Shown: positions 186-42,969, numbered from the stretch's first letter. The stretch: DNA of 64,000 nucleotides from Escherichia coli (GCF_044324785.1 NZ_CP172127.1); one strand, 5' to 3'. Notes: generated by a model not told the origin, from the letters alone. Made by a program: numbers and translations.

Positions 186-947
186 ATGGCACAGGTTGCG
201 ATTATTACCGCCTCCGATTCGGGGATCGGCAAAGAGTGCGCGTTATTACTGGCGCAGCAGGGGTTTGATATTGGTATTACCTGGCACTCAGATGAAGAAG
301 GGGCAAAAGATACCGCGCGTGAGGTAGTTAGCCACGGCGTACGTGCGGAGATCGTGCAACTGGATCTCGGCAATCTACCAGAAGGTGCGCAGGCGCTGGA
401 GAAACTGATTCAACGGCTGGGGCGTATTGATGTGCTGGTGAATAATGCGGGTGCAATGACCAAAGCGCCGTTTCTTGATATGGCTTTTGATGAGTGGCGC
501 AAGATTTTTACCGTTGATGTCGACGGTGCATTCTTATGCTCGCAAATTGCGGCCCGCCAGATGGTGAAACAAGGGCAGGGCGGTCGCATCATCAACATTA
601 CGTCGGTACATGAACATACGCCGCTGCCGGATGCCAGCGCCTACACAGCCGCTAAACATGCGCTCGGCGGGTTAACCAAAGCGATGGCGCTGGAGCTGGT
701 CAGGCATAAGATTTTGGTGAATGCGGTTGCACCTGGGGCGATCGCCACGCCAATGAACGGCATGGATGATGGCGACGTGAAGCCCGGCGCGGAGCCTTCG
801 ATTCCTCTGAGGCGTTTTGGCGCAACGCATGAGATTGCCAGCCTGGTAGCGTGGCTGTGCTCAGAGGGCGCAAATTACACCACCGGGCAGTCGTTGATAG
901 TGGATGGCGGCTTTATGTTGGCGAATCCGCAGTTCAACCCAGAATAG
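186..947 (+). CDS. yohF: Short-chain dehydrogenase/reductase family oxidoreductase
   Basis: ORF with ATG at 186 preceded by GGAGA (176-180); N-terminal glycine-rich Rossmann motif (ITASDSGIGKE); 253 aa, matches recalled YohF. Confidence 0.85.
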   Translation: MAQVAIITASDSGIGKECALLLAQQGFDIGITWHSDEEGAKDTAREVVSHGVRAEIVQLDLGNLPEGAQALEKLIQRLGRIDVLVNNAGAMTKAPFLDMAFDEWRKIFTVDVDGAFLCSQIAARQMVKQGQGGRIINITSVHEHTPLPDASAYTAAKHALGGLTKAMALELVRHKILVNAVAPGAIATPMNGMDDGDVKPGAEPSIPLRRFGATHEIASLVAWLCSEGANYTTGQSLIVDGGFMLANPQFNPE

Positions 948-980
948 CGCAGTGAGGTGCGTGGTTATTTCAATGGGTTA

Positions 981-1054
981 GGCCAGATAAGACACGCCAG
1001 CGTCGCATCAGGCATGGAACACTCGGTGCCGGATGTGGCGTGAATGCTTATCTG
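981..1054. repeat. REP/BIME-type palindromic repeats (two inverted REP units)
   Basis: ggccagataagacacgccagcgtcgcatcaggca and tgccggatgtggcgtgaatgcttatctg resemble enterobacterial REP consensus, in the intergenic gap between convergent yohF and yohD. Confidence 0.6.
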
Positions 1055-1065
1055 TGGCAACTGCT

Positions 1066-1644
1066 TTACGCTTGATTATCCGGCTTTTTCTTCCCGCGCC
1101 GTTTCAGCCACCAGCGCACGCCTACCACCAGAACCACGACCAGAATCAACCAGACCCAGTGCTTCAAATGCTGGTCGAGATTGTGCAACCATGGCGCAAT
1201 CACCTGACCACCAGCGTAACCGATAGTGGTAAAAATCAACGCCCAGGCAAATGCGCCGAGGATATTCAGTGGCAGAAAGATTTTCGGCGGCAGCTGGCTG
1301 GCACCAATCAGCGTCGGGCCAATCACCCGAAAGCCATACATAAAACGCGTACCAATGACAAACAGATACGGATGGCGCTGGATAAGTTTCTGCGCCCGCT
1401 CAATTTTATCCTGATGTTTCGAGAAACGGCGTAACAGCTTGCCGCCAAACCGCCGCCCGCACAGATAGAGCACCTGGTCGCCAATCATGCCGCCAAGCGC
1501 CACAGAAAGTACCACCAGCGGGAACTTTAATAGCCCCTGATGTGCCGCAACGCCTCCCAGCAAAGTCACGGTTTCACCTTCCGCCAGGCTACCGATCACC
1601 AGCGCGGCATAACCATATTGTGAGATGAGTGTATTGAGATCCAT
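1066..1644 (-). CDS. yohD: DedA/SNARE-associated family inner membrane protein
   Basis: ORF on minus strand; start chosen at internal ATG (1644) giving 192 aa (MDLNTLISQYGY...), hydrophobic membrane protein; track ORF begins 36 nt upstream. Confidence 0.8.
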   Translation of the reverse strand: MDLNTLISQYGYAALVIGSLAEGETVTLLGGVAAHQGLLKFPLVVLSVALGGMIGDQVLYLCGRRFGGKLLRRFSKHQDKIERAQKLIQRHPYLFVIGTRFMYGFRVIGPTLIGASQLPPKIFLPLNILGAFAWALIFTTIGYAGGQVIAPWLHNLDQHLKHWVWLILVVVLVVGVRWWLKRRGKKKPDNQA

Positions 1645-2401: not shown

Positions 2402-2574
2402 AAAGTTCTTTTGTGTTGCATTGCTGGCGTAAATGTCAGCAATGCAGCATTTCCTCACGATTCTCCTTTGACGATCGCACTTTTTGCTCGTTATGATGGC
2501 GTCGCTAGCCTCAGTAAATCCTTACTCCGGCGGTGCGCAACCTGTGCGCGTGAACCACTATCTGAATGCTCATC

Positions 2575-22900: not shown

Positions 22901-22981
22901 AAAAAAACCTGCTGGTGAGGCAGGTTCTTTTATTTACTACAGTGACGCTAACTTGCTGATTGTGCAACATTTCGTACCAAC
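22901..22981 (-). ncRNA. orzO: OrzO-like antitoxin sRNA, copy 1 (~81 nt, boundaries inferred)
   Basis: Minus-strand TATAAT (22993-22988) 17 bp from palindromic TTGCAA (23011-23016); intrinsic terminator on minus strand (stem cctgc/gcagg 22908-22924 followed by U7 at 22907-22901); 5' 18 nt (22964-22981) complementary to zor 5'UTR 23132-23149 with one G-U. Confidence 0.5.
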
Positions 22982-23010
22982 GAATAAATTATAACCATAT
23001 CCACACTCCA

Positions 23011-23038
23011 TTGCAATTCAGTGAATGAGATTTATAAT
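23011..23038 (+). promoter_or_regulatory. Sigma70-type promoter of toxin mRNA, copy 1 (TTGCAA-16-TATAAT); the palindromic -35 is shared with the divergent sRNA promoter
   Basis: TTGCAA 23011-23016, TATAAT 23033-23038; predicted TSS ~23045 giving ~175-nt 5'UTR. Confidence 0.55.
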
Positions 23039-23219
23039 CCTGCCCGTTGGGAGGTTGTGCCGGATCGGACCAATTTTAAGTCCTGGCTACCGGACGGGTG
23101 GTGCCGCAGGCGGTGCCCTGATCCGGAGAGCAACGTTTCGTACCAACATACGTAAACCAGTATCGACAGGCAGTGTAAGGGTAAGGTGCTGGTGTTGCGC
23201 TCCTTAATAAGGAGAGCGG

Positions 23220-23309
23220 ATGGACACGCTGACACAAAAGTTAACCGTGCTCATTGCTATACTGGAGCTATTAGTGGCTCTGTTACGGTTGATTGATTTG
23301 TTGAAGTAA
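23220..23309 (+). CDS. zorO: ZorO-like type I toxin, 29-aa hydrophobic peptide (copy 1)
   Basis: MDTLTQKLTVLIAILELLVALLRLIDLLK; AAGGAGA SD 7 nt upstream; TisB-like amphipathic helix; below ORF-track cutoff; which copy is zorO vs zorP not resolved. Confidence 0.7.
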   Translation: MDTLTQKLTVLIAILELLVALLRLIDLLK

Positions 23310-23330: not shown

Positions 23331-23354
23331 AAGGGGGAAAACCGCTTCCCCCTT
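23331..23354 (+). terminator. Hairpin terminator after toxin ORF copy 1
   Basis: aagggggaa-aaccgc-ttccccctt perfect 9-bp stem. Confidence 0.5.
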
Positions 23355-23508
23355 TAATAAAATGATTACTGTTTTTATTAATTCATCATATAACTCATTT
23401 TTATTTATAAATTCATCGATTTTATATTCAACGTACCATTTGACCGGGATGTGAATATTTATGGTGGGCTATTGGCAAAAAATATCTGGAAAGTAGATCG
23501 CAGAAAAT

Positions 23509-23589
23509 AAAAAAACCTGCTGGTGAGGCAGGTTCTTTTATTTACTACTTTGATGTTAAGTTACTGATAGTGCAACATGGCATCTCAAC
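23509..23589 (-). ncRNA. OrzP/OrzO-like antitoxin sRNA, copy 2 (boundaries inferred)
   Basis: Same architecture shifted by 608 bp; 5' pairing region differs from copy 1 at several positions and matches its own cis toxin UTR better. Confidence 0.45.
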
Positions 23590-23618
23590 GAACGAATTAT
23601 AACCACCTCTGGACAGTG

Positions 23619-23646
23619 TTGCAATTAAGATAATGAGATTTATAAT
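23619..23646 (+). promoter_or_regulatory. Sigma70-type promoter of toxin mRNA, copy 2 (TTGCAA-16-TATAAT)
   Basis: TTGCAA 23619-23624, TATAAT 23641-23646. Confidence 0.5.
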
Positions 23647-23827
23647 CCTGACTGTTGGGAAGTTGCGCCGGATCGAACCCATTTCAAGTCCTGGCTACCG
23701 GACGGGTGGTGCCGCAGGTAGTGCTCTGATCCGGAGTGCAACATGGCGACTCAACAAACGTAAACCAGTGTCGACAGGCAGTGTAAGGGTAAGGTGCTGG
23801 TGTTGCGCTCCTTAATAAGGAGAGCGG

Positions 23828-23917
23828 ATGGACACGCTGACACAAAAGTTAACCGTGCTCATTGCTGTACTGGAGCTATTAGTGGCTCTGTTACGGTTGA
23901 TTGATTTGTTGAAGTAA
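23828..23917 (+). CDS. ZorO/ZorP-like type I toxin, 29-aa peptide (copy 2)
   Basis: MDTLTQKLTVLIAVLELLVALLRLIDLLK (I14V relative to copy 1); same SD. Confidence 0.7.
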   Translation: MDTLTQKLTVLIAVLELLVALLRLIDLLK

Positions 23918-23936: not shown

Positions 23937-24344
23937 CTAAGGGGGAATACCGTTTCCCCCTTTAATAAAGCTATACTCGTCATACTTCAAGTTGCATGTG
24001 CTGCGACTTGAATTATCTAGAGTATATAATTCTATTTGTTGGTTGAATATATTCTGTAGTTCACAATTAAAAATTACTATTACAGGTTCAGGTGATTCGC
24101 CTCGTAATTTTTGCTCATCAATAAACTCATCTCTTATATAAATCAACGCATCATTTATTAGCGGGTCGACATCTTCTCGATCACGTTGATGAAATGTTGG
24201 ACGTAGCCGGAATCGCTCCAGCCGGTAGACGGAGCCTGTAAATAATTCAGAGCGTTTATGGATCTCAAGCCTGAAGGAAAACGGCTCTTCAGGTACAGGG
24301 GCCTCATAGTCGTAAATAGTGACCAGCTCTTTTTGCACGATCAT
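23937..24344 (-). CDS. yehK: Small protein of unknown function
   Basis: 135-aa ORF (MIVQKELVTIYDYEAPVPEEPFSF...) 60 nt downstream of yehI; C-terminal codons lie in the terminator hairpin. Confidence 0.6.
   Translation of the reverse strand: MIVQKELVTIYDYEAPVPEEPFSFRLEIHKRSELFTGSVYRLERFRLRPTFHQRDREDVDPLINDALIYIRDEFIDEQKLRGESPEPVIVIFNCELQNIFNQQIELYTLDNSSRSTCNLKYDEYSFIKGGNGIPP
23939..23962. terminator. Hairpin after toxin copy 2, abutting the yehK stop codon (convergent)
   Basis: aagggggaa-taccgt-ttccccctt; yehK stop at 23937-23939 on the opposite strand. Confidence 0.5.
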
Positions 24345-42747: not shown

Positions 42748-42844
42748 TTTATTAACGCGATTGTAAAACTGCGGTTTTTACTCGTTTACAACGCGTGCGC
42801 TGGACATTACCATCCTCCTCTGCGATTTATCATCGCAACCAAAC

Positions 42845-42969
42845 GACTCGGGGTGCCCTTCTGCGTGAAGGCTGAGAAATACCCGTATCACCTGATCTGG
42901 ATAATGCCAGCGTAGGGAAGTCACGGACCACCAGGTCATTGCTTCTTCACGTTATGGCAGGAGCAAACT
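42845..42969 (+). promoter_or_regulatory. TPP (THI-box) riboswitch in thiM leader
   Basis: ggggtgcccttctgcgtgaaggctgagaaatacccgtatcacctgatctggataatgccagcgtagggaagtc matches the classic thiM aptamer including CUGAGA. Confidence 0.9.

What the first reader, a model, noticed from the sequence alone, without database searches (positions are those of the whole stretch)
22964..23149. Back-to-back promoters sharing a palindromic -35 (TTGCAA) and copy-specific 18-nt sRNA:UTR pairing
Seen in sequence: TTGCAA (23011-23016) is its own reverse complement and sits 16 bp from a plus-strand TATAAT and 17 bp from a minus-strand TATAAT, so one hexamer can serve both the toxin and antitoxin promoters. The predicted sRNA 5' end (22964-22981, gcaacatttcgtaccaac) is repeated in the toxin UTR (23132-23149, gcaacgtttcgtaccaac), giving 18 nt of pairing with a single G-U. 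The same arrangement in copy 2 uses a different pairing sequence (gcaacatggcatctcaacgaa vs gcaacatggcgactcaacaaa), implying each antitoxin is matched to its own toxin.
Basis: seen in the sequence. Interest (0 to 1): 0.5.

Follow-up and report, generated by a model that had tools for sequence, protein, structure and literature searches.

The report
Known zor/orz toxin-antitoxin tandem pair

Summary
The region is the yehL–yehK/yehI intergenic array of zor/orz type I toxin-antitoxin modules (Fozo 2010; Wen 2014, 2017; Shore 2024).

- **Family match.** Both sRNA genes hit Rfam RF02083 (OrzO-P) at 88.8 and 91.7 bits; the gathering score is 60.
- **Geometry.** With the published numbering, the layout fits to the nucleotide in both copies. 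The 5' UTR is 174 nt, the RBS is at +164..+169, the Orz target is at +85..+102, and Orz is 81 nt.
- **Copy 1.** Its seed and target are identical to those of EDL933 zorO/orzO, the pair that was tested experimentally.
- **Copy 2.** It carries a third common allele, probably the published zorQ/orzQ type. It pairs 17/18, with one G·U and one A·A mismatch at Orz +7.
- **Specificity.** Cognate duplexes are predicted at −31 to −34 kcal/mol and cross duplexes at −16 to −24. Five of 18 pairs covary among alleles.
- **Shared −35.** One palindromic TTGCAA is the only good −35 for both perfect −10 boxes. The hexamer and its 17/16-bp spacings did not vary in the 10 distinct cores behind 37 complete copies. 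One further copy, fetched later from a complete genome, reads CTGCAA. The literature lists TTGCAA for both promoters but does not discuss the sharing.
- **Corrections.** The UTR repeat lies at 23130–23147, not 23132–23149. Matching holds across the array, not always within a module.

The parts
22901..22981 (-). orz copy 1: OrzO-type antitoxin sRNA, 81 nt, start at 22981, ending in a U-run after the terminator hairpin (stem 22906-22926)
   Evidence: Rfam RF02083 hit at 22901-22974, 88.8 bits against a gathering score of 60. The start is inferred from the published V1 numbering, +9..+11 = GAA. Terminator-like hairpin (found on the + strand scan, and the palindromic stem also serves the - strand followed by U7).
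22964..22981 (-). Orz copy 1 seed, +1..+18: GUUGGUACGAAAUGUUGC
   Evidence: Direct repeat with 23130-23147. Identical to the seed of the EDL933-identical locus L001.
22988..22993 (-). orz copy 1 -10 box (TATAAT on the minus strand)
23011..23016 (.). Palindromic -35 hexamer TTGCAA, 17 bp from the orz -10 and 16 bp from the zor -10
   Evidence: Did not vary in the 10 distinct promoter cores. One copy fetched later reads CTGCAA. Shore 2024 Table 3 lists it as the -35 for both zor and orz.
23033..23038 (+). zor copy 1 -10 box TATAAT
23046..23219 (+). zor copy 1 5' UTR, 174 nt (start at G23046)
   Evidence: The UTR length and the RBS at +164 match the published zorO values.
23130..23147 (+). Orz target in the zor copy 1 UTR (+85..+102): GCAACGUUUCGUACCAAC. 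18/18 paired with the seed, one of them a G·U.
   Evidence: Lies at the 3' end of the published EAP region +73..+102.
23209..23214 (+). zor copy 1 RBS AAGGAG (+164..+169)
   Evidence: Published position.
23220..23309 (+). zor copy 1 ORF, 29 aa: MDTLTQKLTVLIAILELLVALLRLIDLLK (ZorO with V14I)
23333..23357 (+). GC-rich hairpin GGGGGAA...TTCCCCC followed by TTTAATAA; probable zor copy 1 terminator
   Evidence: Read from the sequence. It would give a transcript of about 310 nt, as published. The terminator scan did not call it.
23509..23589 (-). orz copy 2: third-allele ('X', probably OrzQ) antitoxin sRNA, 81 nt, start at 23589
   Evidence: Rfam RF02083 hit at 23509-23582, 91.7 bits. Geometry.
23572..23589 (-). 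Orz copy 2 seed, +1..+18: GUUGAGAUGCCAUGUUGC (V1 = GCC)
23596..23601 (-). orz copy 2 -10 box
23619..23624 (.). Palindromic -35 hexamer TTGCAA of copy 2
23641..23646 (+). zor copy 2 -10 box
23654..23827 (+). zor copy 2 5' UTR, 174 nt
23738..23755 (+). Orz target in the zor copy 2 UTR (+85..+102): GCAACAUGGCGACUCAAC. 17/18 paired with its seed: one G·U at Orz +8 and one A·A mismatch at Orz +7. Complementarity continues to Orz +21.
23817..23822 (+). zor copy 2 RBS AAGGAG
23828..23917 (+). zor copy 2 ORF, 29 aa, identical to EDL933 ZorO

Best explanation
The region holds two tandem zor/orz type I toxin-antitoxin modules in the yehL–yehK/yehI intergenic region of an E. coli chromosome.

In each module, a 51-bp core drives two divergent transcripts whose starts are 65 bp apart. 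The core is one palindromic -35 (TTGCAA) flanked by two perfect -10 boxes.
- Leftward: an 81-nt Orz sRNA.
- Rightward: a zor mRNA with a 174-nt structured 5' UTR and a 29-aa membrane-toxin ORF.

The first 18 nt of Orz pair with +85..+102 of the zor UTR. This is the 3' end of the 'exposed after processing' region, about 70 nt upstream of the sequestered RBS. In the reference strain this pairing blocks translation and triggers RNase III-dependent decay.

The central part of the seed (Orz +5..+11) differs between the two copies, and the targets carry compensating changes. OrzO-type copy 1 is therefore predicted to repress only zor copy 1, and the third-allele Orz only zor copy 2.

Status of the steps:
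- Shown here: family membership, geometry, pairing, covariation, and conservation of the promoter elements.
- Shown elsewhere, in EDL933: start sites, toxicity, rescue, seed sufficiency, O-versus-P discrimination and RNase III dependence.
- Inferred: function of the third allele, and actual use of one -35 by both promoters. RNA polymerase footprints span about -55 to +20, so shared use would make occupancy of the two promoters mutually exclusive.
For: Family and location:
- Rfam RF02083 OrzO-P hits both sRNA genes above the gathering score.
- The locus lies between yehL and yehK/yehI, as published.
- Both ORFs are 29-aa ZorO sequences.

Geometry and identity to the reference:
- UTR 174 nt, RBS at +164, target at +85..+102, Orz 81 nt. 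All equal the published values.
- The copy 1 seed and target are identical to those in locus L001. L001 is 100% identical over 1111 nt to EDL933.

Specificity:
- Cognate duplexes are -31.3 kcal/mol (O) and -33.7 (X). Cross duplexes are -23.4 and -15.7, each with 4 mismatches in 18.
- The published OrzP×zorO pair has 15/18 pairs and fails to repress. The cross pairs in this window have only 14/18.
- The engineered OrzO 6(1)11 represses. This is the natural pattern of copy 2 and of the EDL933 P pair.
- Among 8 distinct seed/target combinations, 5 of 18 pairs show changes on both sides. 91.7% of cells are paired, against 28-45% when the partner is slid. No shuffle out of 500 reached the covariation score.

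Promoter:
- In the 10 distinct promoter cores behind 37 complete copies, TTGCAA, both -10 boxes and both spacer lengths did not vary. The orz spacer varies at 13 of 17 positions.
- Shore 2024 reports TTGCAA conserved in 99.4% of 2,439 loci, with the same figure for zor and orz.
Against: - No transcript data exist for this strain or for the third allele. Its repression is extrapolated from engineered OrzO mutants.
- The copy 2 duplex is weakened by one G·U next to a mismatch.
- Predicted accessibility of the copy 2 target does not rise on removing 28 nt from the 5' end (0.38 falls to 0.26). In copy 1 it rises from 0.34 to 0.56.
- TTGCAA matches the -35 consensus at only 4 of 6 positions, and both -10 boxes are perfect. 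One or both promoters might therefore depend little on it.
- The count of promoter-like sites in the region is not above shuffles: 4 found against 3.8±2.0.
- Chimeric modules exist in complete genomes. Matching within a module is therefore not obligatory.
Confidence: 0.9

Rival explanations
1. The -35 hexamer is not functionally shared. One or both promoters rely mainly on their perfect -10 box, or TTGCAA is conserved for another reason such as a regulator site. The palindrome would then have no consequence for coupling toxin and antitoxin transcription.
For: - TTGCAA matches TTGACA at only 4/6, while both -10 boxes are 6/6.
- The sister system shoB/ohsC uses two separate -35 elements about 70 bp apart, so sharing is not needed for this type of module.
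- No experiment on the zor/orz -35 appears in the text of the four zor/orz papers I searched for promoter or -35 statements.
Against: - The hexamer and both spacer lengths did not vary in the 10 distinct cores. The adjacent orz spacer varies at 13/17 positions.
- It is conserved in 99.4% of 2,439 loci.
- Hexamers shifted by one base score only 2-3/6 (read from the sequence).
- The longer 20-bp palindrome around it exists only in the O allele (alignment). This argues against a conserved dimeric regulator site.
Confidence: 0.2
2. There is no real copy specificity. Both Orz sRNAs repress both zor mRNAs through the shared flanks of the seed (Orz +1..+4 and +12..+18), and the differences in the middle are neutral drift.
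For: - The flanks of the seed are identical in all alleles: 9 of 18 pairs never vary.
- Cross duplexes are still predicted at -16 to -24 kcal/mol.
Against: - Published rescue assays show that OrzP (15/18 pairs) cannot repress zorO, and that swapping the 3-nt V1 region transfers specificity.
- The cross pairs here have 14/18 pairs, with a longest paired run of 7.
- The published rule needs 15 continuous pairs, or 17 discontinuous pairs.
- Five positions changed on both sides, so pairing was maintained.
Confidence: 0.05
3. Copy 2 is a decaying module. Its antitoxin no longer controls its toxin because of the A·A mismatch and the neighbouring G·U.
For: - The duplex is interrupted at Orz +7 and wobbles at +8.
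- The predicted target accessibility in the processed mRNA is low, at 0.26.
Against: - The EDL933 P pair has a mismatch at the same position.
- The engineered OrzO 6(1)11 represses zorO.
- Complementarity extends to +21, and the duplex energy (-33.7) is at least that of copy 1.
- The same 201-nt core is 99% or more identical in 794 of 5,426 complete genomes.
- The ORF, RBS and promoters are intact.
Confidence: 0.05

Closest known systems
zorO/orzO and zorP/orzP of E. coli O157:H7 EDL933 (Fozo 2010; Wen, Won & Fozo 2014; Wen, Harp & Fozo 2017)
   Same: - Same chromosomal site and the same tandem organisation.
- Same 51-bp promoter core, 174-nt UTR, RBS position and target position.
- Same 29-aa toxin and the same Rfam family.
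- The copy 1 seed and target are identical to zorO/orzO.
   Different: - Here the O-type module sits next to yehL and is followed by a third allele. In EDL933 the order from yehL is P then O.
- The copy 1 toxin carries V14I.
- Copy 1 has one base change in the zor spacer and one in the UTR.
zorQ/orzQ, the third locus type of Shore et al. 2024 (mSystems)
   Same: Copy 2 is a third common allele, neither O nor P. It is 99% or more identical in 794 of 5,426 complete genomes. This fits a 'common third locus type'.
   Different: - Identity could not be checked, because the query sequences (their Table S21) are not in the stored supplement.
- The ZorQ protein variant they describe (A20S) is not present here. 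The copy 2 toxin equals ZorO.
shoB/ohsC of E. coli K-12
   Same: - A divergent sRNA whose 5' end pairs in a long toxin 5' UTR.
- Clear sequence resemblance. The OhsC 5' end is GUUGAGGGUGCAUGCUGCAC and the copy 2 Orz is GUUGAGAUGCCAUGUUGCAC.
- The UTR 3' half and the RBS context align.
- A weak Rfam ohsC hit on copy 2, at 33.6 bits.
   Different: - Below the Rfam gathering score of 50.
- The published shoB and ohsC promoters have separate -35 elements about 70 bp apart, so there is no shared hexamer.
- Single copy, with a CpxR-regulated intergenic region.
tisB/istR-1 and dinQ/agrB (other divergent type I modules)
   Same: The antitoxin is encoded divergently and pairs through its 5' end with a site far upstream of a sequestered RBS. 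The mRNA is activated by 5' processing.
   Different: No sequence relationship was tested here. tisB is under LexA control, and pairing there blocks a demonstrated ribosome standby site.
ibs/sib multi-copy type I family
   Same: Several paralogous toxin/sRNA pairs in one genome discriminate cognate from non-cognate partners through short variable recognition regions (cited in Wen 2014).
   Different: Sib sRNAs are fully antisense to ibs, with two recognition domains. They are not divergent sRNAs with an 18-nt seed.

Membership tests
zor/orz type I toxin-antitoxin (Rfam RF02083 OrzO-P) | sRNA matches the OrzO-P covariance model above the gathering score | tested here: met
   88.8 and 91.7 bits against a gathering score of 60, full-length model matches
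zor/orz type I toxin-antitoxin (Rfam RF02083 OrzO-P) | 29-aa hydrophobic Zor ORF preceded by the AAGGAG RBS | tested here: met
   Copy 2 is identical to EDL933 ZorO; copy 1 differs by V14I. The RBS is at +164..+169.
zor/orz type I toxin-antitoxin (Rfam RF02083 OrzO-P) | Location in the yehI-yehL intergenic region | tested here: met
   Flanking genes are annotated yehL and yehK/yehI in the matching genomes. Published location.
zor/orz type I toxin-antitoxin (Rfam RF02083 OrzO-P) | Divergent promoters with -35 TTGCAA and -10 TATAAT for both genes | tested here: met
   Published elements.
zor/orz type I toxin-antitoxin (Rfam RF02083 OrzO-P) | Orz 5' end complementary to the zor 5' UTR, with at least 15 continuous or 17 discontinuous pairs of 18 | tested here: met
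   Copy 1 has 18 continuous pairs (one G·U). Copy 2 has 17/18 (one G·U, one mismatch). Rule.
zor/orz type I toxin-antitoxin (Rfam RF02083 OrzO-P) | Transcription start sites that place the seed and the target inside the two RNAs | not testable with these tools
   Mapped by primer extension in EDL933 only. Here they are transferred by sequence identity and the published numbering.
zor/orz type I toxin-antitoxin (Rfam RF02083 OrzO-P) | Toxin overexpression is toxic and is rescued by the cognate Orz in an RNase III-dependent way | not testable with these tools
   Shown for EDL933 zorO/orzO. Untested for the third allele.
shoB/ohsC | sRNA matches the Rfam RF02495 ohsC model above the gathering score | tested here: not met
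   33.6 bits against a gathering score of 50, on copy 2 only
Divergently encoded ('unconventional') type I toxin-antitoxin modules | Antitoxin sRNA transcribed divergently, not overlapping the toxin gene, with 18-21 nt of complementarity in a long 5' UTR | tested here: met
   Starts 65 bp apart, and an 18-21 nt seed pairing at +85..+102 of a 174-nt UTR. Definition.

The most novel reading that the evidence does not exclude
The single palindromic -35 makes RNA polymerase binding at the toxin and antitoxin promoters mutually exclusive, because the two starts are only 65 bp apart. Each module would then be a built-in competitive switch. Any change in the hexamer, such as the natural CTGCAA variant in strain JNE23-001, would shift the toxin/antitoxin transcription ratio. 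This coupling is absent from the sister system shoB/ohsC, and the text of the four zor/orz papers I searched for it does not discuss it.
Probability: 0.25. Interest if true: 0.4.

Novelty: already known. Interest (0 to 1): 0.12.

Why it matters
The finding does not open a new question. It re-derives, from sequence alone, the published architecture of zor/orz, including the seed/target pairing and the allele specificity that were tested by compensatory mutations in 2014.

Three small points go beyond what I found stated in the papers:
1. One palindromic hexamer is the -35 of both promoters, and shoB/ohsC lacks this arrangement.
2. The second module here is a third seed/target allele whose specificity is untested.
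3. In recombinant arrays the toxin's matching antitoxin can belong to a neighbouring module, so matching is maintained across the array.

RefSeq annotation omits both gene types in all 15 genomes inspected. Recognising the locus therefore has some practical value for annotation.

Tried and rejected
1. **Overlapping -35 elements in shoB/ohsC.** I first thought the K-12 shoB/ohsC locus also had them, because the promoter scan paired TTTACA-16-TAGCAT with the ohsC promoter. I rejected this. The published shoB promoter is GTGACC/TAAAAT, about 70 bp further away.
2. **Confirming that copy 2 is the published zorQ/orzQ.** The query sequences are in a part of the supplement that is not stored. This stays unresolved.
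3. **Metagenome scan with a conserved UTR 24-mer.** It gave only 18 loci.
4. **Genome-representative scan with the promoter-core pattern.** It gave a single hit, in Escherichia whittamii. It shows a narrow Escherichia distribution but adds little diversity.
5. **A 20-bp extended palindrome around TTGCAA in copy 1.** I considered it as a possible regulator site and dropped it, because the P and third alleles lack it.
6. **Literature search for shared -35 elements in divergent promoters.** It returned nothing relevant.
7. **The chimeric metagenome contigs L010 and L018.** They could have been assembly artefacts. No complete genome matches them at 99% or more, but the same seed/target combinations do occur in two complete genomes.

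Full report
**What is in the sequence**

- TTGCAA lies at 23011-23016 and is palindromic.
- A plus-strand TATAAT lies at 23033-23038, 16 bp away.
- A minus-strand TATAAT lies at 22993-22988, 17 bp away.
- The same layout recurs 608 bp downstream: TTGCAA at 23619-23624, with -10 boxes at 23641-23646 and 23601-23596.

The promoter scan calls exactly these four promoters in 1.4 kb, each at 10/12. The number of promoter-like sites is not above shuffles (4 against 3.8±2.0). The composite ATTATA-N17-TTGCAA-N16-TATAAT occurs only at these two places in 64 kb, and never in 100 shuffles.

GCAACATTTCGTACCAAC is at 22964-22981, and GCAACGTTTCGTACCAAC is at 23130-23147. Only these two sites match with 3 or fewer mismatches in the window, against 0.04 expected. 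The copy 2 strings are at 23572-23589 and 23738-23755, with two differences.

**What it is**

Both minus-strand segments hit Rfam RF02083, the 'OrzO-P RNA antitoxin family', at 88.8 and 91.7 bits. The gathering score is 60.

Each is followed on the plus strand by a 29-aa ORF:
- copy 1: MDTLTQKLTVLIAILELLVALLRLIDLLK
- copy 2: MDTLTQKLTVLIAVLELLVALLRLIDLLK

The flanking genes are yehL on one side and a yehK-like gene plus yehI on the other. This is the site where Fozo et al. 2010 found z3289/z3290 in E. coli O157:H7 EDL933. Wen et al. 2014 renamed these zorO/orzO and zorP/orzP.

The window is E. coli. A 12-kb stretch next to the locus is up to 98.6% identical to complete E. coli genomes. The two-module stretch is 99.4% identical to strain A34.

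**Transfer of the published map**

Wen 2014 places the variable 'V1' triplet at Orz +9..+11, as GAA in OrzO and ACG in OrzP. Wen 2017 gives a 174-nt zorO UTR, an RBS at +164..+169, and an 'exposed after processing' (EAP) region at +73..+102. OrzO binds the 3' end of that region.

Starting Orz at 22981 gives GUUGGUAC-GAA. Starting the P-type sRNA of locus L001 at the equivalent base gives GUUGGAAC-ACG. Starting zor at 23046 gives a UTR of exactly 174 nt, AAGGAG at +164, and the target at +85..+102. The same holds for copy 2, from 23654. The two starts are 65 bp apart in both copies.

L001 is 100% identical over 1111 nt to EDL933. The copy 1 seed and target are identical to its zorO/orzO. The start sites were mapped by primer extension in EDL933.

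A small point: the literature calls the O duplex '18 nt perfect complementarity'. In EDL933 and in all 11 complete O-type copies I sampled, Orz +13 forms a G·U.

**Copy specificity**

Copy 2 is neither O nor P. Its seed is GUUGAGAUGCCAUGUUGC (V1 = GCC), and its target is GCAACAUGGCGACUCAAC.

In-register pairing and RNAduplex energies:

| Orz × zor | Pairs of 18 | Detail | Energy (kcal/mol) |
|---|---|---|---|
| O × O | 18/18 | one G·U | -31.3 |
| X × X | 17/18 | one G·U; A·A mismatch at Orz +7; complementarity continues to +21 | -33.7 |
| P × P (EDL933) | 17/18 | mismatch at the same +7 | -34.0 |
| O × X | 14/18 | longest paired run 7 | -23.4 |
| X × O | 14/18 | longest paired run 7 | -15.7 |

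Three published benchmarks bear on this.
- OrzP×zorO has 15/18 pairs, which my count reproduces, and it fails to repress.
- Swapping V1 transfers specificity.
- The engineered OrzO 6(1)11 still represses. The stated rule is 15 continuous or 17 discontinuous pairs.

On this basis both cognate pairs in the window should work, and both cross pairs should not.

I extracted 37 complete modules from 13 complete E. coli genomes, 12 metagenome contigs, E. whittamii and the window. They give 8 distinct seed/target combinations. On these:
- five of 18 pairs (Orz +5, +6, +9, +10, +11) show changes on both sides;
- 91.7% of cells pair, against 28-45% when the partner is slid by 1-3 columns;
- no shuffle out of 500 reached the observed covariation score.

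Only three independent allele classes underlie this result, so it counts alleles rather than many separate events. Shore et al. 2024 reached the same conclusion on 2,439 loci. [quoted passage not shown]

The copy 2 core is 99% or more identical in 794 of 5,426 complete genomes, and the copy 1 core in 1,182. Both alleles are therefore common. I could not verify that my third allele is their Q.

**A nuance on 'each antitoxin matched to its own toxin'**

Two metagenome contigs carry chimeric modules: a P seed with an X target in L010, and an X seed with a P target in L018. The crossover lies near the start of the zor UTR.

No complete genome matches those contigs at 99% or more. The same combinations do occur in two complete genomes.
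- JNE23-001 has three modules: P-seed/X-target, O/O and X/X.
- SL112 has two modules: P/P and X-seed/P-target.

In both genomes every toxin target still has a matching Orz somewhere in the array. Orz acts in trans. What appears to be maintained is therefore matching within the array, not strictly within a module.

**The shared -35**

Only one TTGCAA lies between the two starts, and shifted hexamers match the consensus worse (2-3/6). In the 10 distinct 51-bp cores behind the 37 copies, the hexamer, both -10 boxes and both spacer lengths did not vary. The orz spacer varies at 13 of 17 positions and the zor spacer at 6 of 16. My search anchored on the zor -10, so only the conservation of the -35 and of the orz -10 is independent evidence. 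A copy fetched later, in JNE23-001, reads CTGCAA.

Shore 2024 Table 3 lists '-35 (TTGCAA)' for both Zor and Orz, with identical conservation: 99.4% in full loci and 99.7% in orz-only loci. This is what one shared hexamer would give.

Text searches of four zor/orz papers found no statement about sharing, palindromy or promoter interplay. These were the 2014 paper, the 2024 paper, a 2014 review and the 2022 paper. The figures, which box the elements, are not available to me.

Sharing is therefore implicit in the literature and untested. The sister system shoB/ohsC clearly resembles zor/orz in the sRNA 5' end and in the 3' half of the UTR. Its published promoters have separate -35 elements about 70 bp apart. 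The compact shared-hexamer layout is thus specific to zor/orz.

Two polymerases probably cannot occupy promoters whose starts are 65 bp apart. This follows from the usual -55..+20 footprint. It is an inference, not a result.

**Verdict**

Interest is low.

What remains open:
- whether the palindromic -35 couples the two promoters;
- the function of the third seed allele;
- whether matching is maintained across the array in recombinant arrays.

Noticed in passing
L033 (E. coli JNE23-001) 1233-2600; L034 (SL112) 625-1700; metagenome contigs L010, L018: These are recombinant zor/orz arrays. Some modules combine the Orz seed of one allele with the zor target of another (P seed/X target; X seed/P target). 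In both complete genomes the matching Orz is supplied by a neighbouring module. SL112 then has an OrzX with no target.
   Followed up: partly
L033 position about 1864 (module 2 of JNE23-001): A natural variant of the shared -35 reads CTGCAA instead of TTGCAA. It breaks the palindrome and weakens the two promoter readings at different positions.
   Followed up: no
window 23046-23058 with 23130-23147: In the predicted fold of the full-length copy 1 zor mRNA, its own 5' end (+1..+13, GUUGGGAGGUUGU) pairs with the Orz target (+85..+102), with probability about 0.77. The mRNA and the sRNA both begin GUUGG, so the mRNA 5' end looks like a cis mimic of the antitoxin seed. This fits the published opening of the region after removal of 28 nt. 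For copy 2 the probability is only 0.18.
   Followed up: partly
window 22975-22981 and 23583-23589: The Rfam RF02083 model starts at Orz +8. The curated family therefore lacks the first 7 nt of the functional seed.
   Followed up: no
L001, L002, L022-L031, L033-L035: RefSeq/PGAP annotates neither the 29-aa zor ORFs nor the orz sRNAs in any of the 15 complete genomes fetched. The only feature under the array is a yehK-like 'hypothetical protein'.
   Followed up: no
window 23937-24344 (-): A yehK-like ORF (135 aa as listed; annotated as a 117-aa hypothetical protein in strain A34) converges on zor copy 2. Its stop codon lies about 20 nt beyond the zor stop and next to the zor terminator hairpin.
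   Followed up: no
L021 (Escherichia whittamii) 425-1500, reverse strand: The only hit among one-genome-per-species representatives. It has a P-type and an O-type module, and the O module has a 175-nt UTR. The family seems confined to Escherichia and Shigella.
   Followed up: partly
window 42839-42935 (+) and 2490-2570 (+): A TPP riboswitch (71.2 bits) and a Peptidase-S11 RNA motif (73.1 bits) lie elsewhere in the window. Both are ordinary for this chromosomal region.
   Followed up: no
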